Sequence record: PZ445498.1
Origin: a phage
Reading direction: 5' to 3' (one strand)
Length of the DNA: 64,000 nt
The notes beneath the pieces were generated by a model, which saw only the letters and a list, made by a program, of their open reading frames with translations, did not search any database and was not told where the DNA came from. Of the stretch, positions 36,017-62,650 are shown one piece after another (position 1 is the first letter of the stretch; each line of letters starts with the position of its first letter). The position numbers and the translations under genes are program-made.

Positions 36017-36784
36017 TTATTCAGCAGCCGCAGCTTTTGCATCCAGTTTAGCACGCTTAGCGGCACCATCATAGTCCTTAGCAACCAGACCACGACGAGA
36101 CAGCATAGATTTAACACCGCGCTCAGACTTACCAGTTTTCTCAGCGATCTCAGCAACAGTCATGTTAGCCAGATCCAGACCTTCTAACAGATCTTCACGA
36201 GTTTTAGCACTTGAAGTTTCCTGTACCGGCATAGCAGCGATACGACCTTCACGAAGCAGGCTCAGAGCTTTACCACGGATCTGCTTAATATTGCGACCGA
36301 AGTGAGCAGCGATAGCTTCAATAGTAGCACCAGCAACAACCTGATTAACGAAATCAGTTTCTTCGTCAGGAGTGAAGGAACGAACAGCAGCAGCTTTTTC
36401 AGTTGGCTTAACAGAAGCGGTCATTTCCAGACTCAGGATCTTACCCTGTACCTGCTTAGCACCGAACTGACCACCAGCTACAGCAGCAGCGATTTCAGCG
36501 TAAGTATACTGACCAGCATGAGCGTTCAGGAAATCAACCAGTTCAGCTTCTTGTTCAGGAGTCCACGGGGATTTCTGTACTTCGTTAGCTTTCTGTACTT
36601 CGAAACCTTCTTTACGCAGCTTAGAGCCAACAGAGCGAGCGGTAACGTCTTTACCAGTCTCGGTAGCCAGTTCAGCAGCGATAGCAGCTACTTGTTCTTG
36701 AGAGATTACAGCAACACCCAGAGCAGTGGCTTTTGCTTTCAGAGACTCGGTTACACCTTCTACGTTCCAGTTCAGTTTAGACAT
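36017..36784 (-). CDS. abundant early DNA-binding protein (D5-like)
   Basis: 255 aa; strongly optimal codon usage; repeated helix-turn-helix-like modules (TVAEIAEKTGKSERGVKSMLSRRGL). Confidence 0.5.
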   Translation of the reverse strand: MSKLNWNVEGVTESLKAKATALGVAVISQEQVAAIAAELATETGKDVTARSVGSKLRKEGFEVQKANEVQKSPWTPEQEAELVDFLNAHAGQYTYAEIAAAVAGGQFGAKQVQGKILSLEMTASVKPTEKAAAVRSFTPDEETDFVNQVVAGATIEAIAAHFGRNIKQIRGKALSLLREGRIAAMPVQETSSAKTREDLLEGLDLANMTVAEIAEKTGKSERGVKSMLSRRGLVAKDYDGAAKRAKLDAKAAAAE

Positions 36785-37559
36785 TATTATTTTTCTCCAA
36801 TAGTTCTTTAATCGACAGGATTTCTATCCCATTCGTTTCGGCTTTCTTATAAGATGAGGAAGAACGTTTTGATTCATCCTCACAGATTAGGTATTTGACG
36901 TCTTTGGTAACGGACTTCTTAACCGTATATCCTAGACTTTCTAAATAGTTTGTTGCATCCGTTCGATTTGCAAAATCTTGCAAAGATCCGGTAATACAGA
37001 CCGTGATTCCATTTGGCTGGGCAACTAAATCATCAGTAATGATGATATCAGCTTTAGCACCTCGAATACCAGTTGAGAATTTCCACGGTAATTCAATAAC
37101 ATCCTTGCCTTGTGGGGAATTTAGCCAGGTTTTGTAATTTTCTCCAGCCTTGCCGTCAGCCTTCACATCGTGGAAGCTAGTGCAATTTTGGGACAGTTTC
37201 TTTGCTGCAACCTCTCCAATAAGAGGAATTCCTAAAGAACCGAGAACTGAACCAAAGTCAATGTCTCCGCGAACCTTAGTATTTAACTCGCTAATCAACT
37301 TAGTGGCAACCTTGCTACCCACAGCTCCGACCAAATCTTCTTCGGTCAGGTAAAACAGTTCTGAGATCTTAGTCAGTTCCAGCTTCTCAATAGTTTTTGG
37401 GCCAAAGCCCTTTAACTTCATTTTTGTGCAGAAGTTCTCGATTAACTTACTTGATTGCGCTGGACAGTTGGACTTATTCCTACAGAATAATTGCCCGTTG
37501 ACAAGATCTAGCTTAGAACCACAAGAGGGACATTGTGTTGGAATTTCGATTTTCATCAA
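36777..37559 (-). CDS. NAD-dependent DNA ligase, C-terminal subunit (Zn-finger, HhH, BRCT)
   Basis: 260 aa; starts with Cys4 zinc finger CPSCGSKLDLVNGQLFCRNKSNCPAQ; C-terminal BRCT-like region. Confidence 0.8.
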   Translation of the reverse strand: MMKIEIPTQCPSCGSKLDLVNGQLFCRNKSNCPAQSSKLIENFCTKMKLKGFGPKTIEKLELTKISELFYLTEEDLVGAVGSKVATKLISELNTKVRGDIDFGSVLGSLGIPLIGEVAAKKLSQNCTSFHDVKADGKAGENYKTWLNSPQGKDVIELPWKFSTGIRGAKADIIITDDLVAQPNGITVCITGSLQDFANRTDATNYLESLGYTVKKSVTKDVKYLICEDESKRSSSSYKKAETNGIEILSIKELLEKNNNV

Positions 37560-37586
37560 ATTTCTTCCTTATCAATTTATATAAAT

Positions 37587-37615
37587 ATTATAGCAAGTAT
37601 TTAAGCATTTAGCAA
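37587..37615 (-). promoter_or_regulatory. early promoter inside the ligase inter-subunit spacer
   Basis: Reverse complement TTGCTA-N17-TATAAT followed by ATTTATATAAATTGATAAGGAAG leader. Confidence 0.6.
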
Positions 37616-37679
37616 CTACAATTTTAACTAACTTTGCTTACCCTCGCCATAACTTTCTATCCCTCAACTGAATGATAAT

Positions 37680-37708
37680 AGTATATACCTAAGCGGCGAA
37701 AATGTCAA
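37680..37708 (-). promoter_or_regulatory. second candidate promoter in ligase spacer
   Basis: Reverse complement TTGACA-N17-TATACT. Confidence 0.45.
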
Positions 37709-37758
37709 TAACCACTTTATAATTCCGACATGGTAAACGGGTAGCAAAGGGTTACGAA

Positions 37759-38733
37759 TTAGTCGTATACTCGCTCTACTATACAAGGGATTACACCACC
37801 AGCACGAATCACTCGAATCTGGCAACCGATCTCTAAATCGAGAGCGTTAATATAATCAACGTTATTAAGAGTTGCTTTAACGATTGTGGCATCATCAATA
37901 ATCACCGGCTCGAAATAACCAACTGGAGTTACTTTACCAGAAGCCCCTACTTGCCATTCAACTTTAACAAGTGTGGTAATTTCGCCTTCTTCATCCTCTT
38001 TAATAGCAAATGCACCACGAGGAAATTTATTAGTCCAACCTTCACGGAAGAATTTATTGTTGTCGTTAATACGAACAACTTTACCGTCCGTCGGAATCCA
38101 TTTAAAAAAGGAACGAACATTAACAACTGTCAAGAAGTTCTCATTCTCTAGCCAAAGCATATCTTTTAAATAGGCTTCTGTAATACCGACTGTTTCCGCT
38201 GAACACTGTATACCATATGCAACGAAGATTAAACCACCTTCACCAATACGTTGCATGAAATCATCGCTGTCTTTCAGGTTAATAGCACCCGAAGCGTAGT
38301 TACGTTTGTTCTCTACTTCTTTAGTAATGAGAACTTCACCAGTGATTTGAGTTGGTACTTTTTGGGAAATAGTTTTGGGGATGTTCAGCATTTTAACATT
38401 ATGCGTTACATCATTCCCTAGAATACCGTTACCACGAGTTAACGCTTGAACAAACTCACCATTAATATATAATAGAGAAATCGCACAACCATCTAACTTA
38501 TCAGTTTCAACCTGACCAAGTGGGTTGAATGGAGCTTTATCACCACGATCGTAATAGACTTTCTGCAAAGAATACATACGATACAAATGAGGGATATCAC
38601 CTTTCGGTCCGATTTCTTCCTCTAGTGGGAATCTTTTAATCAGACGATCATATTCTTCATCGGAAATAAGACTCATTCCCTGGTAGTACGCTTCTTGACA
38701 ACGTTTAATAAAGTCTTTTACATTATTCATCAT
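37759..38733 (-). CDS. NAD-dependent DNA ligase, N-terminal subunit (adenylation + OB domains)
   Basis: 324 aa; adenylation motif KLDGCAISL (KxDG) and OB-fold region. Confidence 0.8.
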   Translation of the reverse strand: MMNNVKDFIKRCQEAYYQGMSLISDEEYDRLIKRFPLEEEIGPKGDIPHLYRMYSLQKVYYDRGDKAPFNPLGQVETDKLDGCAISLLYINGEFVQALTRGNGILGNDVTHNVKMLNIPKTISQKVPTQITGEVLITKEVENKRNYASGAINLKDSDDFMQRIGEGGLIFVAYGIQCSAETVGITEAYLKDMLWLENENFLTVVNVRSFFKWIPTDGKVVRINDNNKFFREGWTNKFPRGAFAIKEDEEGEITTLVKVEWQVGASGKVTPVGYFEPVIIDDATIVKATLNNVDYINALDLEIGCQIRVIRAGGVIPCIVERVYD

Positions 38734-38941
38734 CTGCGATTTCCATTTTGAGTTCTTTACTATACTGCGCAGCCATACCAGCTAAATCAGCAGCTTCTTT
38801 CAACCACGCATCTTTGTACGCTTTCTGGTTTGGAGTGCCGATACTATCCTGGTAATTGATTCTTGCTATGGAGAGCAAATTAAGTTTTGCTTGAATCTTT
38901 GGAAGTGTTATTATCATTGCCATAATTGATCCTCTCATCAA
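38723..38941 (-). CDS. hypothetical protein
   Basis: 72-aa ORF directly downstream of an early promoter. Confidence 0.35.
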   Translation of the reverse strand: MMRGSIMAMIITLPKIQAKLNLLSIARINYQDSIGTPNQKAYKDAWLKEAADLAGMAAQYSKELKMEIADDE

Positions 38942-38952
38942 TTTATATAAAT

Positions 38953-38981
38953 ATTATATATGAAAACTGAGTCGAAAGCAA
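38953..38981 (-). promoter_or_regulatory. early sigma70-type promoter (minus strand)
   Basis: Reverse complement TTGCTT-N17-TATAAT followed by ATTTATATAAATTGATGAGAG. Confidence 0.65.
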
Positions 38982-38992
38982 GTACATTTATA

Positions 38993-39025
38993 AAGAAAAA
39001 GCCAAGAACTAGGCATTCTTGGCTT
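38993..39025 (-). terminator. intrinsic terminator
   Basis: GCCAAGAA / TTCTTGGC 8-bp stem; T-run on the minus strand. Confidence 0.6.
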
Positions 39026-39317
39026 TGAGTTCTTCAGCTCGTTTCTGTACTTCATGCAAGACCTCTGATTCACTGAGGATTTGCGTAAAAGCGTAGAATA
39101 GCTGTGATGTAGTTTCTAGGGTATAAGGAAAAGAGAAGCCGGATTTCGTTGGAAACCACTCTCCAGTAATATCTTGGAGCCAGTAACGAATTCCCATGTA
39201 TAGATTCCCACGAAATTCAGATACGGTTAGTCTTACTTGTTCCCCCTCCTTCTCCCAAAGCATGATGGACTGGTCGTCAACGTGTCCTTCATAGTTTTGA
39301 TTTACTTGATCGCTCAT
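39009..39317 (-). CDS. hypothetical protein
   Basis: 102-aa ORF. Confidence 0.4.
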   Translation of the reverse strand: MSDQVNQNYEGHVDDQSIMLWEKEGEQVRLTVSEFRGNLYMGIRYWLQDITGEWFPTKSGFSFPYTLETTSQLFYAFTQILSESEVLHEVQKRAEELKAKNA

Positions 39318-39332
39318 TTACATATCCCAAAT

Positions 39333-39358
39333 ACACAAAAAGCCCCATATAGGGGCTA
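39333..39358 (-). terminator. intrinsic terminator
   Basis: AGCCCC-ATATA-GGGGCT hairpin with T-run on the minus strand. Confidence 0.6.
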
Positions 39359-39367
39359 ATTGGTTTC

Positions 39368-39664
39368 TTATCGGCCTACTGGAGAAGCACGATCTAACTC
39401 TGACTGGAGGCTCGTCACACGGCGAACTTTCGCAACAGGAATGAAACGGAAGCTATCATTAGTACGAGAGAAAACGAGGATTTCATCCTCTTTCGGCTTA
39501 CGGATGCGCTCACGTTTAATACGCTCAGCCAGGTATTTATCCTGAGCTGGATCAAATTCCATCGTACCCTGAAGGTACGTGGTTCCTTTCTGACGAAGTT
39601 TTTCGTAATGAAGATAAAACTCACCAAATTTTTCGCATTGAGCAATAATTTCAGCTTTATTCAT
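39368..39664 (-). CDS. hypothetical protein
   Basis: 98-aa ORF. Confidence 0.4.
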   Translation of the reverse strand: MNKAEIIAQCEKFGEFYLHYEKLRQKGTTYLQGTMEFDPAQDKYLAERIKRERIRKPKEDEILVFSRTNDSFRFIPVAKVRRVTSLQSELDRASPVGR

Positions 39665-39700
39665 AACTGTATTCCTTGTGTTGGTGGATTTATCTAAGAA

Positions 39701-40111
39701 TTACTTAGTAATAGCTCTGATAGCTTCTGCCAGATGAGCAGCTGCTTTACCGGTCAGCTTGTCGACGATCGTGTCGTCCAGGAAGTCCGGTGCTAAGCCA
39801 GCATCAGAGAATGCAGAGCGAAGATCGGAGTGAGCCTGAGCTTTGGAAGTACGAGAACCACCAGAAGCTTTTTCTCCAGTAGATGCGCTTGATTTAGAAG
39901 TAGAGCCAGCAGCTTTCTTGATATACAGACCTGCTTTGGTCAGCTTCATACGAAAACCGTTCGGAGTTACACCATTTTCCTGAGCAATTTCGCTAACAAT
40001 TTCCATGCTAACGCCCGGACGCTCATCTTCTGGGAATTGCTCCATACGAGCAACGTAGTCGGAAGACATTTTTTCGAACAGTTCATCAGTCCACTGAGTT
40101 GGAGTAGTCAT
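39701..40111 (-). CDS. hypothetical protein
   Basis: 136-aa ORF downstream of early promoter at 40170-40198. Confidence 0.4.
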   Translation of the reverse strand: MTTPTQWTDELFEKMSSDYVARMEQFPEDERPGVSMEIVSEIAQENGVTPNGFRMKLTKAGLYIKKAAGSTSKSSASTGEKASGGSRTSKAQAHSDLRSAFSDAGLAPDFLDDTIVDKLTGKAAAHLAEAIRAITK

Positions 40112-44765: not shown

Positions 44766-44856
44766 GTAAAATTTTTCCGAAGGTGCTATCAGTGTCTTTG
44801 AGCACAGAGAAAACCGAGCCAAAATGACTCGGTAATCAGGATTGGGCTAACGAAAA

Positions 44857-45252
44857 TCAATCATCATTTAGACCTGGGACATAGATCCCAATGCGATTTA
44901 ATTGACCTTTAGCTTCTTCGAGAATATCTTCGGTGTACTCCCAAATATCATCTTCTACTTGCAAAAGATAAGGGGATTCACCAGTTTCGGGGTCACGTGT
45001 AATGGCTAAGCCACGTGAATGGAATATAGAGAAGTTGAGGGCAACAATCAAGCCCATGCTGGACAATTCATTCCAGTCAGCTTCCCAACCATCATCTTCA
45101 TCTTCGTCCACAAATACACCTACACTAGGGTCTGTTACAGAAGTAAACGGAAATGTTACACTAACCTTGTCAACCCCCAACCAACGTGCAAGGAGCCCCT
45201 CAGCACGCTCTACCAAACTAGGATCTATCTGACGCCAAAATACTTGTTCCAT
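44857..45252 (-). CDS. hypothetical protein (tandem paralog A)
   Basis: 131 aa; shares W.EL..MGL..ALN...F....TGE.P......D.W.Y..E.....L.R.G...PGL pattern with the adjacent gene. Confidence 0.45.
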   Translation of the reverse strand: MEQVFWRQIDPSLVERAEGLLARWLGVDKVSVTFPFTSVTDPSVGVFVDEDEDDGWEADWNELSSMGLIVALNFSIFHSRGLAITRDPETGESPYLLQVEDDIWEYTEDILEEAKGQLNRIGIYVPGLNDD

Positions 45253-45261
45253 TCTGCCTCC

Positions 45262-45690
45262 TTAAGCAGTTAAACCTGGGATCATATACCCGAAACGACG
45301 AAGTTTCTGAATCCCCTCATTTACTTCCTCGGGCGAATATGACCAGCCATCACGTTCATTTACCTGGAAAGCAGGAGCTTCACCAGTGCGATAATTTACA
45401 ATAAGACGGTGATTTGCAGGCATAAACAGCTTATGATTCAAGGCAAAAACCAGACCCATTTCATCGAGTTCTTTCCAGTCTACAATCTCTTCTACTCCCT
45501 CCCCTAAATCCACGCTAACTCCAATACACGGAGCTTCCTCTAGCGGGCCTTTAAAGGATAAGAAGATATCGTTATTCTCACACCAAATCTTGAGCAGATT
45601 GATGGTTTCATTATACATACCATTAGGGAGAGAGCGCCAGAAGTTGAGAAGCATAGGATTTACCTCTTTCATGAAAATATTATTGAACAT
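45262..45690 (-). CDS. hypothetical protein (tandem paralog B)
   Basis: 142 aa; paralogous to 44857-45252. Confidence 0.45.
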   Translation of the reverse strand: MFNNIFMKEVNPMLLNFWRSLPNGMYNETINLLKIWCENNDIFLSFKGPLEEAPCIGVSVDLGEGVEEIVDWKELDEMGLVFALNHKLFMPANHRLIVNYRTGEAPAFQVNERDGWSYSPEEVNEGIQKLRRFGYMIPGLTA

Positions 45691-45692
45691 GC

Positions 45693-46232
45693 TTATACCT
45701 TAAGTTTCTGAAGAGCCTTACACATTTCAAGATTTGGACTAAACTCCAGCATATAGCTGATAGCGTTTAAATCTTGAAGGTTTATTCCAGTCCTGCCGTT
45801 TACAATAACAGAAGGAAATTGATACATCATAGCACCAGCATCATCTAGGACACACCAATGCTTGAGCTTATATTTTTCTACAAAACGTAAAACAGAATTA
45901 CCCCGAGATAAACCACCTCCAGTAAAGTCTGTTGTACCAAGAAAACGATCGATCAAACCGAGTCCGGTCATAATCTGAACGTTCTCCATTTCATTTCGTA
46001 CAGAAAACCATGAAGATACCCCAACAATCATTATTGGGGGTGGCTTAAGAAAGTTCTGAAAAGCCTGGAGTAATGGCTTGTAAACCCAATCACCACCAAA
46101 GAATAGCTTCTCACTATCTGGAGCATGATGGTGAGAGATGCTCGAATTGAGCACCCCATCAATATCCAGGAAAATCACAGGAGTATTACTTATTTCCACC
46201 AGTAGCATCCCACGTCCAGACTTTAACTTCAT
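45693..46232 (-). CDS. HAD-superfamily phosphatase-like protein
   Basis: Motif I FLDIDGVLN (DxDG[TV]); start probably at an internal Met. Confidence 0.5.
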   Translation of the reverse strand: MKLKSGRGMLLVEISNTPVIFLDIDGVLNSSISHHHAPDSEKLFFGGDWVYKPLLQAFQNFLKPPPIMIVGVSSWFSVRNEMENVQIMTGLGLIDRFLGTTDFTGGGLSRGNSVLRFVEKYKLKHWCVLDDAGAMMYQFPSVIVNGRTGINLQDLNAISYMLEFSPNLEMCKALQKLKV

Positions 46233-46371
46233 CAGTAAAAGGAACTGGAACCTTCAATTCACCTTTACCCCACATAACAGATAGGAACAGAGAATAAATG
46301 GTAATCATACCGATTAGGTTGACAAACCATACTAGACCTTTCCAGATACCCTTAAAAATCTTCTTCACCAT
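46186..46371 (-). CDS. small membrane protein
   Basis: 61 aa from ATG 46371 with GGAGGGAG Shine-Dalgarno; one hydrophobic helix (LVWFVNLIGMITIYSLFLSVMW). Confidence 0.4.
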   Translation of the reverse strand: MVKKIFKGIWKGLVWFVNLIGMITIYSLFLSVMWGKGELKVPVPFTDEVKVWTWDATGGNK

Positions 46372-46534
46372 ATTCTCCCTCCTTAATAAGGAACTCTTTC
46401 CATTCTGCTGTATCCTCATAGATAACGCAGAAATCATCACTCTTCCATGAGAAGTCATCAGTAGCAAATTCGAAACGGTAGCACCAACTACCATCTGGCC
46501 ATATTAAAAGATCACACATGCTTTTCTGGGACAT
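46352..46534 (-). CDS. small hypothetical protein
   Basis: 60 aa from ATG 46534 with GGAGGGA Shine-Dalgarno. Confidence 0.35.
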   Translation of the reverse strand: MSQKSMCDLLIWPDGSWCYRFEFATDDFSWKSDDFCVIYEDTAEWKEFLIKEGEYGEEDF

Positions 46535-47363
46535 AAATATTTCCCTCCATAAAAGCTTCAACTTGATCAATAAAGTGTTTATTACCAAAAACTTCGGCAG
46601 CTCCAGCACGCCATACAGTAACACCACGTTTCTCATACTCAAGCTGTTCGTCATAACGAACTTGTGGGTTAACAACCATCATCTTAGTTCCACGACATAC
46701 AGCAGGAAATAATTCCCAGTTGAAGTTGATAACTTGGTTACTACAACCCACCACAATAACCATGTCATTGCTAGTAAGAGTATCAAACAGGTTGATTTGA
46801 CCCATGTACCACGGAGCTGTCTCACCAAAGAACACCACGTTTGGTTTTACCCATTCGTAATCTTCAGGGGCAATCGCAGTATACCCAACATCTTCGATGA
46901 TTTGATTGCGACCCTGACGATAGATCACCTCTTTCAAGTACCCGTGAGCGTGAATTATTTCATCACGAGGGATACCAGCACGTTCCAGAAGGTCATCAAC
47001 GTTAGTAGTGAAGTTCTTCACGCTATCCGCACCATAACGCTGGAACCATTCTGCAATTCGCAGATGGGCAATGTTAGGCTCAACAGTCTGTAGTTCCTGA
47101 CGACGCATGTTGTAGAACTCATGAGTCTTGAGATACAGATCGTTACCATCTTCATCAATGCCAGGGAAACGAGCACTGAAGTAGTTAGGATCATCTTCAC
47201 CACAGAAGCGACGGAAGCCAGCTTCAAAGTTAGGCAAGCTACATACTTCCTCTAGATCGTACTCATCCCACAAGGATTTCCCACTAGCAGTATCAGTACG
47301 GAAAGCACGAACACCACTATCTACACTCAAACCTGCACCACTAACAACGATTAGTCTACGCAT
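46512..47363 (-). CDS. Sir2-family (sirtuin-like) NAD-dependent protein, lacking zinc-ribbon cysteines
   Basis: 283 aa; sirtuin motifs GAGLSVDSGVRAFR, TTNVDDLLERAG, HAHG, VVFFGE and VVGCS align with bacterial CobB; no Cys-x2-Cys pairs between HG and VVFFGE. Confidence 0.75.
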   Translation of the reverse strand: MRRLIVVSGAGLSVDSGVRAFRTDTASGKSLWDEYDLEEVCSLPNFEAGFRRFCGEDDPNYFSARFPGIDEDGNDLYLKTHEFYNMRRQELQTVEPNIAHLRIAEWFQRYGADSVKNFTTNVDDLLERAGIPRDEIIHAHGYLKEVIYRQGRNQIIEDVGYTAIAPEDYEWVKPNVVFFGETAPWYMGQINLFDTLTSNDMVIVVGCSNQVINFNWELFPAVCRGTKMMVVNPQVRYDEQLEYEKRGVTVWRAGAAEVFGNKHFIDQVEAFMEGNIYVPEKHV

Positions 47364-47557
47364 TATACGATTCCTTGCTTGAATCCTTCGATGATATTTT
47401 GGAGCAGAATTGCTTCTTCTGGGCGAACCTTCTCTTGCTTAATAAGCATATCCAAACCAGCAATACAGGTAGCTACTCCAGCATTATACCCAGCATTCCA
47501 CTGCTCCATAAGCATATTTTCTAAATTACTTTTTAGATTCTGATTCAAGAAGTCCAT
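47363..47557 (-). CDS. hypothetical protein
   Basis: 64 aa from internal ATG with GGAGGA Shine-Dalgarno. Confidence 0.3.
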   Translation of the reverse strand: MDFLNQNLKSNLENMLMEQWNAGYNAGVATCIAGLDMLIKQEKVRPEEAILLQNIIEGFKQGIV

Positions 47558-47729
47558 AAAGTTTTTCCTCCAATTCCATAATACGATTTTCGTAAGAAGC
47601 ACGCAGCTTCTCGATGGACAAAGCACGAACTGTAACTTCATCTGAATTGATCGCTAGCTGAGCTAGATCTTCTGTTTCCATACGTCCGTTGTAAATTAAG
47701 CGATATTTAAGATGTTTTACGTTTTTCAT
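47526..47729 (-). CDS. hypothetical protein
   Basis: 67-aa ORF. Confidence 0.3.
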   Translation of the reverse strand: MKNVKHLKYRLIYNGRMETEDLAQLAINSDEVTVRALSIEKLRASYENRIMELEEKLYGLLESESKK

Positions 47730-48085: not shown

Positions 48086-48118
48086 AAAGCCAGATCGACT
48101 AGCGACCTGGCTGATTCA
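48086..48118 (-). terminator. intrinsic terminator after nrdD
   Basis: AGCCAG...CTGGCT hairpin followed by TTTTATTTTATTT on the minus strand. Confidence 0.6.
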
Positions 48119-50020: not shown

Positions 50021-50049
50021 CTATTATAACTCATTAGAAGGCGGATGTC
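50021..50049 (-). promoter_or_regulatory. consensus sigma70 promoter for nrdD
   Basis: Reverse complement TTGACA-N17-TATAAT; AGGAGG Shine-Dalgarno before the ATG. Confidence 0.7.
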
Positions 50050-50102
50050 AACAATATTTTACTATAAAGTTCTGTAACATGATCTGAGTCAAAAAATTTT
50101 AT

Positions 50103-50131
50103 TTGCCAACCTCTATTAAAAATAGTATAAT
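50103..50131 (+). promoter_or_regulatory. sigma70-type promoter (distal, divergent from nrdD)
   Basis: TTGCCA-N17-TATAAT. Confidence 0.5.
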
Positions 50132-62332: not shown

Positions 62333-62650
62333 ATGATTTTTCATATTCTAATTGATGATGTTCGTGACCTACATGGGATGGATATTATCATTCGAACCCC
62401 CGAAGCCGCTATTGAGTTTCTGAATACAACCGATACCACCGGACATTTCGTTTATATGGATAACGATCTGGCTGTAGATGGTATGGAAGGTTATCAAATT
62501 CTTCGTTTACTCCTAAAATTTGGTCAGAGACCCAAGAAAGTGGTACTAGTAACCTCGAACCCAGTAGCTAAAGAGACCATGCGTAATGATCTCTTAGACG
62601 AAGGGTATCAAGAAAGCCCTAATCGTATTGAGTACGATTGGCCGGAGTAA
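62333..62650 (+). CDS. CheY-like receiver-domain-like protein (stand-alone)
   Basis: 105 aa; ILIDDV (acidic pocket), VYMDNDLAVDGMEGYQIL (phospho-acceptor-like D followed by GM.G), VVLVTS (conserved Thr/Ser position). Confidence 0.4.
   Translation: MIFHILIDDVRDLHGMDIIIRTPEAAIEFLNTTDTTGHFVYMDNDLAVDGMEGYQILRLLLKFGQRPKKVVLVTSNPVAKETMRNDLLDEGYQESPNRIEYDWPE

What the first reader, a model, noticed from the sequence alone, without database searches (positions are those of the whole stretch)
46512..47363. Phage-encoded Sir2 (sirtuin) homolog without the zinc-ribbon cysteines
The 283-aa protein carries the core sirtuin motifs (GAGLSVDSGVRAFR, TTNVDDLLERAG, HAHG, VVFFGE, VVGCS) in the order seen in bacterial CobB. 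The roughly 33-residue segment between the catalytic His and VVFFGE, where canonical sirtuins have the Cys4 zinc module, contains no cysteine. Zinc-less Sir2 domains are typical of NAD-degrading effectors in bacterial defence systems. A phage copy could deacylate or ADP-ribosylate host proteins, or manipulate NAD pools during takeover.
Basis: partly seen in the sequence, partly recalled or inferred. Interest (0 to 1): 0.65.

Follow-up and report, generated by a model that had tools for sequence, protein, structure and literature searches.

The report
Zinc-less sirtuin of T5-like phages
This is the already annotated Sir2-like gene of T5-like phages: a real sirtuin that has lost its zinc-binding cysteines, resembles protein-deacylating sirtuins rather than bacterial NAD-destroying defence enzymes, and sits beside predicted RNA-end-repair genes, but its substrate has never been tested.

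Summary
Window 46512..47363 (minus strand) encodes a 283-aa Sir2-family protein (Pfam SIR2 E=6.6e-22; phrog_2162 E=2e-108). All quoted motifs are present, and the 34 residues between HAHG and VVFFGE contain no Cys or His.

The window is a T5-like Epseptimavirus, 99.4% identical to phage SuperGirl. The gene is annotated "Sir2-like / NAD-dependent deacetylase" in hundreds of phage genomes. Loss of the zinc ligands in phage Sir2/CobB was published in 2016, and an RNA-repair role for this phage sirtuin clade was predicted in 2022.

I reproduced the published gene-neighbourhood signal:
- The gene shares a terminator-bounded block with a HAD_SAK_2 phosphatase.
- In other phage families its homologs sit beside RNA ligase, cREC, a kinase and Nudix.
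- Only zinc-less viral sirtuins show this context (47 of 68 loci against 0 of 12).

The best guess is an NAD-dependent enzyme in RNA-end healing (confidence 0.4). Protein deacylation is the main rival (0.33). I found no experimental data. The feature is already known and of moderate-to-low interest.

The parts
46512..47363 (-). Sir2-family (sirtuin) gene, 283 aa, standalone catalytic domain
   Evidence: ORF; Pfam SIR2 E=6.6e-22; phrog_2162 E=2e-108; AF2 pLDDT 94, pTM 0.91; closest folds are CobB, Sir2Af1 and Sirt5
47298..47339 (-). NAD-binding loop GAGLSVDSGVRAFR (aa 9-22)
   Evidence: Coordinates checked. G9, G11 invariant; A10, S13, S16, G17, F21, R22 at least 90% conserved in 136 relatives
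47124..47225 (-). Variable insertion in the small helical domain (aa 47-80), of variable length among relatives and with lower model confidence
   Evidence: Gapped in most homologs; mean pLDDT 81-86 in this region
47103..47114 (-). YNMR = the YxxR motif (Tyr84, Arg87) typical of class III sirtuins (Sirt5, CobB)
   Evidence: Aligned to CobB FYNARR. F, Y, N, R, R at least 95% conserved in close homologs. Replaced by YNTL in the jumbo-phage versions
46995..47009 (-). TTNVD (aa 119-123): the nicotinamide-pocket motif with the canonical Gln replaced by Thr
   Evidence: T119, N121 invariant, D123 at least 90% conserved. A non-Gln residue at position 120 co-occurs with loss of the Cys4 site (43/15 against 9/76, Fisher p=4e-15)
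46941..46952 (-). HAHG with the catalytic His140
   Evidence: H140 and G141 invariant in 136 relatives; aligned to the CobB catalytic HG
46839..46940 (-). Remnant of the zinc module (aa 142-175): no Cys, no His, predicted as a beta-sheet
   Evidence: 0 Cys, 0 His. Strands at residues 141-150, 153-158 and 172-176 with pLDDT about 98. Relatives with 4 Cys have CxxC...CxxC here
46821..46838 (-). VVFFGE substrate/NAD loop (aa 176-181)
   Evidence: F179 and E181 at least 90% conserved
47363..47641 (-). Small upstream ORF (92 aa as the longest ORF; annotated as 64 aa, 47363..47557, in SuperGirl). Its stop overlaps the Sir2 start (TAATG)
   Evidence: phrog_5827, unknown function; found only in T5-likes
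46352..46534 (-). Small ORF (60 aa) overlapping the Sir2 3' end by 23 nt
   Evidence: SuperGirl bas29_0052; homologs only in T5-likes, directly after Sir2
46186..46371 (-). Small ORF (61 aa) between Sir2 and the HAD gene
   Evidence: SuperGirl bas29_0051; phrog_11166
45693..46232 (-). HAD_SAK_2 phosphatase ('Swiss Army Knife' RNA-repair HAD family). The start is either 46232 or 46199
   Evidence: Pfam PF18143 E=6.7e-18. DIDGVLN motif I. Present within about 1.3 kb downstream of the Sir2 start in all 28 HAD-carrying T5-like loci sampled
45262..45690 (-). DUF7415 protein (142 aa), acidic
   Evidence: Pfam PF24187 E=8.8e-37; always follows the HAD gene
44857..45252 (-). Second DUF7415 paralog (131 aa), very acidic (pI 4.05)
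   Evidence: HMM hit; pI
48088..48112 (-). Terminator-like hairpin after nrdD; upstream boundary of the Sir2 block
   Evidence: 10-bp stem plus T-run; consensus scan only
44813..44833 (-). Terminator-like hairpin after the second DUF7415 gene; downstream boundary of the block
   Evidence: 9-bp stem plus T-run; consensus scan only
62333..62650 (+). cREC_REC (cyclic-phosphate-processing receiver-like) protein, 15 kb away. It is the same family that sits next to Sir2 in other phage families
   Evidence: Pfam PF20274 E=6e-15

Best explanation
SHOWN:
- The gene encodes a standalone sirtuin of a clade that appears restricted to phages. The clade branched from CobB/Sirt5-like (class III) sirtuins.
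- It kept every residue needed to bind NAD+ and cleave off nicotinamide: GAGxS, FR, Asn121, Asp123, His140 and the FGE loop.
- It lost the Cys4 zinc site, while the beta-sheet of that module is retained in the model.
- It changed the canonical TQN motif to TTN.
- It lies in a block of early genes bounded by two terminator-like hairpins, together with a HAD_SAK_2 phosphatase and two DUF7415 proteins.

INFERRED (most likely, following Iyer, Burroughs and Aravind 2022):
- The enzyme uses NAD+ as an ADP-ribosyl donor in an RNA-end (probably tRNA-end) healing pathway.
- After a metal-independent host nuclease leaves a 2',3'-cyclic phosphate, a cyclic phosphodiesterase opens it. The candidate is the cREC protein at 62333..62650.
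- The sirtuin then removes a resulting 2'-phosphate the way Tpt1/KptA does. The phosphate oxygen attacks C1'' of NAD+ and nicotinamide leaves. The His140-activated ribose 2''-OH then attacks the phosphorus and releases ADP-ribose 1'',2''-cyclic phosphate. This mirrors the two chemical steps of sirtuin deacylation.
- The HAD phosphatase removes remaining terminal phosphates or processes the ADP-ribose product.
- No RNA ligase was detected in T5-likes. The healed 3' end would therefore have to be repaired by host enzymes, for example the CCA-adding enzyme.

No substrate has been tested experimentally.
For: Enzyme competence:
- Pfam, PHROG and PDB matches.
- Invariant G9, G11, H100, T119, N121, H140, G141 and G206 across 136 relatives.
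- AF2 model with pLDDT 94.

Context in the window:
- HAD_SAK_2 lies about 300 bp downstream of the Sir2 stop, within one terminator-bounded block.
- A cREC_REC protein lies at 62333..62650.

Context elsewhere, verified by Pfam:
- Vequintavirus: RNA ligase (Rnl1 type), cREC, Sir2, with a divergent kinase and a metallophosphoesterase.
- Mydovirus: phosphoesterase, RNA ligase, cREC, kinase, Sir2.
- Jumbo Asteriusvirus: Sir2, Nudt16-like Nudix, cREC.
- Distant zinc-less viral sirtuins (29-38% identity) are also next to HAD_SAK_2, and the one contig of these checked (L082) also carries a Thg1-like tRNA repair enzyme nearby.

Counts over 80 IMG/VR loci: 47 of 68 zinc-less sirtuins have such a neighbour within 10 kb, against 0 of 12 zinc-containing ones.

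Co-loss: phage DT57C lost Sir2 and the HAD gene together through deletions.

Neofunctionalisation signal: the TQN to TTN change co-varies with zinc loss.

Congruent biology: the closest genome carries about 30 tRNA genes, the NAD-restoring NARP3 gene pair and an NAD-dependent ligase (PMC13464706).

Published prediction: PMC9503650, section 3.7.3.
Against: - There is no biochemical evidence for any sirtuin acting on RNA. The HAD_SAK_2 and cREC family names are themselves computational predictions.
- No RNA ligase was found or annotated in the T5-like genome, and its 'polynucleotide kinase' has no Pfam support.
- The protein and its clade are acidic (query pI 4.8, net charge -16; clade mean pI 5.2). 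That is unusual for an RNA-binding enzyme.
- The hydrophobic residues that line the acyl-lysine tunnel in CobB are kept (Val122, Val176/177, Phe178/179, Val211).
- Every nearest solved structure is a protein deacylase.
- The YxxR Arg is not kept in the jumbo-phage versions that share the RNA-repair context. It therefore cannot be a universal phosphate-binding residue.
- Some T5-like and phAPEC8-like loci keep Sir2 without any recognised RNA-repair neighbour.
- The lineages in the 47/68 against 0/12 count are not independent.
Confidence: 0.4

Rival explanations
1. It is an ordinary NAD+-dependent protein lysine deacylase of the CobB/Sirt5 type (deacetylase or desuccinylase, given the YxxR motif). 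Early in infection it would remove acyl groups from host or phage proteins such as the translation, transcription or metabolic machinery. Zinc loss would be a purely structural simplification.
For: - The YxxR motif of desuccinylating class III sirtuins is at least 95% conserved in close homologs.
- The catalytic His, the FGE loop and the hydrophobic tunnel residues are retained.
- An acidic surface suits basic, lysine-rich substrates.
- This is the reading proposed for the Vibrio phage homologs (PMC5107563).
Against: - Scores are far below every NCBIfam CobB cut-off (92 against 243 bits), so it is not a CobB ortholog.
- The Gln of TQN is replaced by Thr throughout the clade. That Gln is mutated in the Sirt5 Q140L entry 8z56 listed; that the mutation impairs catalysis is my own inference.
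- The substrate-side VxP motif is VIN.
- The host already has CobB.
- The conserved neighbours are nucleic-acid-end enzymes, not protein-modification genes.
Confidence: 0.33
2. It is an NAD+ hydrolase or a protein/small-molecule ADP-ribosyltransferase used in takeover or counter-defence. It would lower or redirect host NAD+, or make or destroy ADP-ribose-derived immune signals.
For: - Zinc-less Sir2 domains are common among defence NADases (general knowledge).
- Other viral sirtuins sit next to NAD salvage genes such as NAMPT and NMNAT-Nudix (L067, L072).
- Neighbours such as Nudix and cREC have also been proposed to process ADP-ribose derivatives (PMC7824862).
- The Sir2 allele is swapped or fast-evolving relative to its flanks, as is often seen for conflict genes.
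Against: - No PADLOC hit, and no match to any Pfam family other than SIR2.
- No adjacent sensor, HerA, SLOG, pAgo or Macro partner.
- The NAD-salvage-linked viral sirtuin in L072 (NAMPT and NMNAT-Nudix) is zinc-containing, not of this clade, although the one in L067 (NAMPT only) is zinc-less.
- The phage depends on NAD+ (NAD-dependent DNA ligase) and its closest relative carries the NAD-restoring NARP3 pair. Bulk NAD+ destruction would therefore be self-defeating.
Confidence: 0.15
3. It is a decaying or dispensable accessory gene with little function in this phage.
For: DT57C carries a deleted, chimeric remnant of sir2 and the HAD gene and was isolated as a viable phage.
Against: - The gene is full length and intact in about 913 of 980 phage records.
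- Catalytic residues are invariant from 29% to 99% identity.
- It is translationally coupled within an operon.
Confidence: 0.05

Closest known systems
E. coli CobB and other class III sirtuins (Sir2Af1, human/zebrafish SIRT5)
   Same: - Same motif order.
- Catalytic His, nicotinamide-pocket Asn and Asp, FGE loop and the YxxR motif are all present.
   Different: - Only about 27% identity.
- Far below the CobB equivalog cut-offs.
- No Cys4 zinc site.
- TQN changed to TTN, and VYP changed to VIN.
- A 34-residue insertion in the small domain.
- Phage-encoded and linked to phosphatase and RNA-end genes.
Phage 'RNA-repair' sirtuin clade of Iyer, Burroughs and Aravind 2022 (PMC9503650, section 3.7.3; T5-like type example Escherichia phage SP15); phrog_2162
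   Same: This protein is a member. It is a standalone phage sirtuin with a HAD 'Swiss Army Knife' phosphatase neighbour and no Macro partner. Homologs sit next to RNA ligase, cREC, a kinase and Nudix.
   Different: Nothing differs in architecture.
- the correlation of zinc loss and TQN to TTN with that context;
- the DT57C natural double loss;
- the allele discordance with T5.
Sir2/CobB of Vibrio 'schizoT4' phages (KVP40, phiSt2, phiGrn1, ValKK3), Skliros et al. 2016 (PMC5107563)
   Same: Phage sirtuin lacking the zinc ligands. That paper lists T5 as carrying a homolog.
   Different: Only 31-35% identity to the window protein. It has TANVS in place of TTNVD and INP in place of VIN. The neighbours differ: DUF7275, MazG.
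Tpt1/KptA RNA 2'-phosphotransferase
   Same: Proposed functional analogy only. Both would use NAD+ in a two-step chemistry: an oxygen nucleophile attacks C1'', then the ribose 2''-OH attacks the electrophilic centre. Both occur in a comparable genomic company of RNA ligase, kinase and cyclic phosphodiesterase.
   Different: Unrelated fold (ADP-ribosyltransferase fold against Rossmann sirtuin fold). There is no experimental link.
Defence-associated Sir2 NADases (ThsA, DSR1/2, Sir2-HerA, SPARSA; Pfam SIR2_2)
   Same: Sirtuin superfamily fold without a zinc ribbon; NAD+ as substrate.
   Different: - No PADLOC hit and no match to any Pfam family other than SIR2.
- No sensor or partner domains.
- Encoded by a virulent phage.

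Membership tests
Sirtuin superfamily (Pfam SIR2, PF02146) | Significant match to the family profile above the curated cut-off | tested here: met
   78.7 bits against a cut-off of 24, E=6.6e-22
Sirtuin superfamily (Pfam SIR2, PF02146) | Rossmann-type NAD-binding fold with the GAGxS...SGxxxFR loop | tested here: met
   [not shown]
Sirtuin superfamily (Pfam SIR2, PF02146) | Catalytic His (HG) and nicotinamide-pocket Asn and Asp (xNxD) | tested here: met
   H140, G141, N121 invariant; D123 at least 90% conserved in 136 relatives
Sirtuin superfamily (Pfam SIR2, PF02146) | Cys4 zinc-binding module between the catalytic His and the FGE loop (canonical deacylase sirtuins) | tested here: not met
   0 Cys and 0 His in aa 142-175; 0-1 Cys in all 121 sequences (query plus 120 close homologs)
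Sirtuin superfamily (Pfam SIR2, PF02146) | NAD+-dependent catalytic activity | not testable with these tools
   Requires an enzyme assay
CobB / class III sirtuin deacylases | Score above the NCBIfam CobB / NAD-dependent deacylase cut-offs | tested here: not met
   Best is 91.9 bits against a cut-off of 243; the other models score 38-75 bits against cut-offs of 221-395
CobB / class III sirtuin deacylases | YxxR motif that recognises acidic acyl groups (Sirt5 Y102/R105, CobB Y92/R95; residue numbers from general knowledge) | tested here: met
   Y84 and R87 aligned to CobB FYNARR; at least 95% conserved in close homologs
CobB / class III sirtuin deacylases | Canonical TQNxD motif (Gln contacting the nicotinamide ribose) | tested here: not met
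   TTNVD here and in nearly all loci of this clade (TTNID in one)
CobB / class III sirtuin deacylases | Lysine deacylase activity on protein substrates | not testable with these tools
   Requires peptide or protein assays
Defence-type Sir2 NADases (ThsA, DSR, Sir2-HerA, pAgo-Sir2) | Match to defence-system Sir2 profiles | tested here: not met
   No PADLOC family at E up to 1; the only Pfam family matched is SIR2
Defence-type Sir2 NADases (ThsA, DSR, Sir2-HerA, pAgo-Sir2) | Closest structural neighbours are defence Sir2 domains | tested here: not met
   [not shown]
Defence-type Sir2 NADases (ThsA, DSR, Sir2-HerA, pAgo-Sir2) | Fusion or operon with a sensor or partner (SLOG, HerA, pAgo, long C-terminal sensor) | tested here: not met
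   Standalone 283-aa domain. The neighbours are small ORFs, HAD_SAK_2 and DUF7415
Phage RNA-repair-associated sirtuin clade (Iyer et al. 2022) / phrog_2162 | Phage-encoded standalone sirtuin matching the phage family profile | tested here: met
   phrog_2162 E=2e-108, full length; 980 phage records; only one relative, 33% identical, in 185,579 species genomes using close-relative patterns
Phage RNA-repair-associated sirtuin clade (Iyer et al. 2022) / phrog_2162 | Conserved neighbourhood with RNA-end-processing genes (HAD_SAK in T5-likes) and no adjacent Macro domain | tested here: met
   HAD_SAK_2 E=6.7e-18 downstream in the same block; seen in all 28 HAD-carrying T5-like loci; no Macro hit among the neighbours
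Phage RNA-repair-associated sirtuin clade (Iyer et al. 2022) / phrog_2162 | Predicted 2'-phosphate removal from RNA with NAD+ | not testable with these tools
   A prediction only; no experimental paper found
SirTM (macrodomain-linked ADP-ribosylating sirtuins) | Operon or fusion with a Macro domain | tested here: not met
   [not shown]

The most novel reading that the evidence does not exclude
The zinc-less, TTN-type phage sirtuins would be the first sirtuins whose physiological substrate is RNA rather than protein. They would be NAD+-dependent 2'-phosphotransferases, functional analogues of Tpt1/KptA on a different fold. Together with HAD_SAK_2, cREC and Nudix partners they would heal tRNA ends cut by host anticodon or acceptor-stem nucleases, and so act as a counter-defence module. 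The swapping of Sir2 alleles between otherwise near-identical T5-like genomes would then reflect an arms race.
Probability: 0.3. Interest if true: 0.75.

Novelty: already known. Interest (0 to 1): 0.33.

Why it matters
The gene itself is ordinary at the annotation level. It has a PHROG, a "Sir2-like" label in hundreds of T5-like, rV5-like, phAPEC8-like, KVP40-like and jumbo phage genomes, and a published functional prediction.

It still matters for three reasons:
- No phage sirtuin of this clade has been characterised experimentally in the literature I could search.
- NAD+ is now recognised as a central battlefield between phages and bacterial immunity. T5-like phages also carry the NAD-restoring NARP3 pair and an NAD-dependent ligase.
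- The two leading hypotheses, protein deacylase and RNA 2'-phosphate remover, are cleanly separable with simple assays on a small soluble protein from tractable BASEL phages.

Confirmation of the RNA hypothesis would extend sirtuin chemistry to nucleic acids.

Tried and rejected
- PADLOC scan for defence-type Sir2: no hit.
- NCBIfam: only sub-threshold CobB hits, so CobB orthology is rejected.
- Literature searches for experimental work on phage or T5 sirtuins found only genome announcements, one in-silico study and two comparative-genomics papers. A search for zinc-less sirtuins was uninformative.
- The search for related loci on bacterial genomes failed with the alignment. With the single protein it found one 33%-identical hit. 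This supports phage restriction, but the patterns used only detect close relatives.
- An RNA ligase was looked for in the T5-like genome with an HMM built from the rV5-like and Mydovirus ligases, and with Pfam on the larger hypothetical proteins. None was found.
- The idea that the YxxR Arg is a conserved phosphate binder is rejected. Jumbo-phage versions in the same context have YNTL.
Surface electrostatics around the cleft and any docking could not be done, and only whole-protein charge was computed.
- phAPEC8-like and Vibrio contexts gave no recognisable RNA-repair neighbour, only a recurrent DUF7275 protein.
Full report
**1. The observation**

Window 46512..47363 holds an ATG-started ORF of 283 aa on the minus strand. 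The 34 residues between HAHG and VVFFGE contain no cysteine and no histidine.

The match to the sirtuin family is far beyond chance:
- Pfam SIR2 gives E=6.6e-22, 78.7 bits against a cut-off of 24.
- phrog_2162, 'Sir2 (NAD-dependent deacetylase)', gives E=2e-108 over the full length.
- E. coli CobB (1s5p) gives E=5e-17.

The only corrections are the strand and the segment length (34 residues, not 33).

**2. Where the window comes from, and what was already known**

The region is 99.4% identical to Escherichia phage SuperGirl (BASEL Bas29), an Epseptimavirus of the Demerecviridae, that is, a T5-like phage. In SuperGirl and in hundreds of related records the gene is annotated 'Sir2-like protein / NAD-dependent deacetylase of SIR2 family'. 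A tblastn search finds homologs in 980 phage records: T5-likes, Vequintavirinae, phAPEC8-like phages, Klebsiella phages, Vibrio KVP40-like phages and jumbo phages.

Two papers bear directly on the finding:
- Skliros et al. 2016 (PMC5107563) modelled the Sir2/CobB of Vibrio phages. They reported that it and the KVP40 homolog lack the zinc ligands, and listed T5 among the phages carrying the gene.
- Iyer, Burroughs and Aravind 2022 (PMC9503650, section 3.7.3) stated that most viral sirtuins form a distinct clade. They predicted that it acts in RNA repair, like KptA/Tpt1. For T5-like phages (type example SP15) they cited a neighbouring 'Swiss Army Knife' HAD phosphatase.

Seven full-text searches turned up no experimental characterisation of any phage sirtuin of this clade. 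The library does not cover most subscription journals.

**3. What kind of sirtuin it is**

An AlphaFold2 model built from a 136-sequence alignment is confident (mean pLDDT 94, pTM 0.91). The former zinc module is predicted as three strands (residues 141-150, 153-158 and 172-176) at pLDDT about 98.

The structural neighbours are classical sirtuins:
- Foldseek against the PDB returns only classical sirtuins in the top 50. They are led by E. coli CobB (E about 3e-15, target-normalised TM 0.78-0.83, 27% identity), Sir2Af1 and SIRT5.
- PADLOC gives no hit.

NCBIfam CobB models match, but far below their cut-offs (92 against 243 bits). The protein is therefore a divergent offshoot of the CobB/Sirt5-like (class III) sirtuins. 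It is neither a CobB ortholog nor a defence-type NADase.

Residues conserved across relatives:
- Invariant: G9, G11, H100, T119, N121, H140, G141, G206.
- At least 90% conserved: A10, S13, S16, G17, F21, R22, F83, Y84, P96, N97, D123, P174, F179, E181.

The class III YxxR motif (Y84, R87) is at least 95% conserved among close homologs. The machinery for NAD+ binding and nicotinamide cleavage is intact.

**4. Zinc loss in context**

In the exhaustive search of 1.84 billion representative proteins, 1,719 match at E<=1e-3. The nearest representatives are mostly zinc-less (0-1 Cys) and carry TTNVD. More distant ones carry CxxC...CxxC and the canonical TQNxD.

A non-Gln residue in the TQN position and the lack of zinc co-occur strongly (43/15 against 9/76, Fisher p=4e-15). 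The sequences are related, so this is not a phylogenetically corrected test. The consensus sequences of the zinc-less and zinc-containing groups are otherwise almost identical.

Zinc loss is thus a derived change within one family. It is accompanied by a change at a residue that contacts the nicotinamide ribose in canonical sirtuins. This is compatible with altered chemistry but does not prove it.

**5. Gene neighbourhood**

In the window, the Sir2 start overlaps the stop of a small upstream ORF (TAATG), and its 3' end overlaps a small downstream ORF by 23 nt. Two small ORFs further on lies a 179-aa protein (45693..46232) that matches Pfam HAD_SAK_2, 'HAD domain in Swiss Army Knife RNA repair proteins' (E=6.7e-18). 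Two acidic DUF7415 paralogs follow it.

Terminator-like hairpins lie at 48112-48088, after nrdD, and at 44833-44813. They bracket exactly this block, which suggests a single transcription unit. This rests on a consensus scan only. A cREC_REC protein, the family proposed to open cyclic phosphates, lies at 62333..62650.

I then checked the published neighbourhood claim independently:
- In Vequintavirus WalterGehring the order is RNA ligase (Rnl1 type), cREC, Sir2, with a divergent kinase and a metallophosphoesterase and a tRNA cluster 5 kb away.
- In a Mydovirus the order is phosphoesterase, RNA ligase, cREC, kinase, Sir2.
- In the jumbo phage A4 the order is Sir2, Nudt16-like Nudix, cREC.

I also ran iterated HMMs over 80 IMG/VR loci:
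- 47 of 68 zinc-less sirtuins have a HAD_SAK_2, cREC, RNA ligase, kinase or Nudix gene within 10 kb.
- None of the 12 zinc-containing viral sirtuins does.
- A separate zinc-less lineage (L082, L083, L086) is only 29-30% identical to the query and still carries TQNVD. It also sits next to HAD_SAK_2, and in L082, the one contig of the three where I checked, near a Thg1-like tRNA repair enzyme.
- Some viral sirtuins are instead next to NAD salvage genes. The zinc-containing L072 has NAMPT and NMNAT-Nudix. The zinc-less L067 has NAMPT.

The lineages are not independent. Even so, the recurrence across at least four phage families with different partner enzymes is a solid guilt-by-association signal.

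**6. Natural loss and allele exchange**

Phage DT57C carries two deletions. Together they remove the 5' part of sir2 and fuse its C-terminal part to the C-terminus of the HAD gene. Both genes were therefore lost together in a phage that was still isolated as viable. This chimera explains why phrog_18062, labelled 'Sir2', matches the HAD C-terminus. That in turn explains why several RefSeq records label the HAD gene as a second Sir2.

Between the window and phage T5 (L036), the flanking genes are 88-94% identical: nrdD 88.8%, HAD 88.7%, primase 93.6%. Sir2 is only 52% identical. Sir2 proteins of T5-like, phAPEC8-like, rV5-like and Mydovirus phages are all 49-71% identical to one another regardless of phage family. 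The small flanking ORFs are mosaic. The sirtuin has evidently been exchanged among virulent enterobacterial phages, or it evolves faster than its neighbours.

**7. Mechanism**

What is shown is an intact, NAD+-competent, zinc-less, apparently phage-restricted sirtuin, co-organised with a predicted phosphatase. The acceptor substrate is inferred, not shown.

I rank the RNA-end-healing model first (confidence 0.4), because of the neighbourhoods and the clade-specific TQN to TTN change. The chemistry is plausible. In deacylation the acyl oxygen attacks C1' of NAD+, and the His-activated ribose hydroxyl then attacks the carbonyl carbon. In Tpt1 a 2'-phosphate oxygen and then the ribose 2''-OH do the same at phosphorus.

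The points against this model are serious:
- No sirtuin is known to act on RNA.
- T5-likes have no detectable RNA ligase.
- The clade is acidic (query pI 4.8, net charge -16).
- The hydrophobic tunnel residues and the YxxR motif of deacylases are retained.
- The YxxR Arg is absent in jumbo-phage versions that share the same context.

A conventional protein deacylase is therefore a close rival (0.33). An NADase, ADP-ribosyltransferase or signal-processing role is less likely (0.15). The fold is closest to deacylases, there is no partner or sensor, and the phage itself depends on NAD+: it has a split NAD-dependent DNA ligase, and its closest relative carries the NARP3 NadR-like and PnuC-like genes just beyond the window's end (PMC13464706).

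**8. Verdict**

The feature is real but already known at the level of annotation, family (phrog_2162), zinc-less state (published for relatives) and predicted role.

- zinc loss and the TQN to TTN change track the RNA-repair neighbourhood;
- the block appears to be bounded by terminators;
- DT57C is a natural joint loss of Sir2 and the HAD gene;
- the Sir2 allele is discordant with its flanks.

Interest is moderate to low (0.33). The open and readily testable question is the substrate.

Noticed in passing
window 45693..46232 (-): The HAD_SAK_2 phosphatase gene is labelled 'Sir2 (NAD-dependent deacetylase)' in several RefSeq phage records. The label comes from phrog_18062 (92 aa), which matches only the HAD C-terminus. 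That PHROG label appears to derive from the chimeric sir2::HAD remnant of phage DT57C, so this is a propagated mis-annotation.
   Followed up: yes
window 62333..62650 (+): A 105-aa cREC_REC protein (Pfam PF20274, E=6e-15), annotated only as hypothetical in SuperGirl. In other phage families this family sits directly beside the Sir2 gene.
   Followed up: partly
window 44857..45252 and 45262..45690 (-): Two tandem, very acidic DUF7415 paralogs (pI 4.05 and 4.73) always follow the HAD gene in T5-like phages. They persist next to Sir2 even where the HAD gene is absent (L011, L012, L020). Function unknown.
   Followed up: partly
window 46512..47363 compared with L036 (phage T5) 10001..10801: The divergence is discordant. 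Sir2 is 52% identical between this Epseptimavirus and T5, while the flanking nrdD, HAD and primase are 88-94% identical. Sir2 proteins of T5-like, phAPEC8-like, rV5-like and Mydovirus phages are all 49-71% identical to each other, and the small flanking ORFs are mosaic. This suggests allele exchange or accelerated evolution.
   Followed up: partly
L089 (phage DT57C) 2468..2740: DT57C carries two deletions that destroy sir2 and fuse its C-terminal part to the HAD C-terminus. It is a natural joint loss of both genes in a viable phage.
   Followed up: yes
L003 2793..3734 (phAPEC8), L004 2815..3576 (Vibrio ValKK3), and 8 IMG/VR loci: A DUF7275 protein (with a clear DUF7277 domain in phAPEC8, only a sub-threshold one in ValKK3) recurs 2-4 kb upstream of Sir2. 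It does so in phage lineages whose Sir2 has no recognisable RNA-repair neighbour. Function unknown.
   Followed up: no
window 50023..50051 (-) and 50103..50131 (+): Back-to-back promoter-like sites between nrdD and the PhoH-like gene. One matches the sigma-70 consensus perfectly (12 of 12, TTGACA-17-TATAAT) and the other matches 11 of 12. This looks like a divergent early promoter pair.
   Followed up: no
L088 8683..10417 (SuperGirl 67282..69016, about 1.7 kb beyond the window's end): The closest genome carries homologs of the NAD-restoring NARP3 pair: a NadR-like protein (CTP_transf_like plus AAA_28) and a PnuC-like NMN transporter. A cluster of about 30 tRNA genes begins just upstream of the pair and extends downstream of it. 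The phage thus both consumes and rebuilds NAD+.
   Followed up: partly
L067 8057..9490, L072 6943..9767, L075 9721..11195: More distant viral sirtuins sit next to NAD salvage genes: NAMPT in L067 (zinc-less) and NAMPT plus NMNAT-Nudix in L072 (zinc-containing). In L075 (zinc-containing) the neighbours are DUF4326 and a nucleoside 2-deoxyribosyltransferase-like protein. This context differs from that of the T5-like clade.
   Followed up: partly
window about 36393..38346 (-) (from SuperGirl coordinates 37971..39924): The NAD-dependent DNA ligase is encoded as two separate subunit genes (A and B). It is another NAD+ consumer in the same early region. The window coordinates are inferred from the offset to SuperGirl and were not checked directly.
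   Followed up: no
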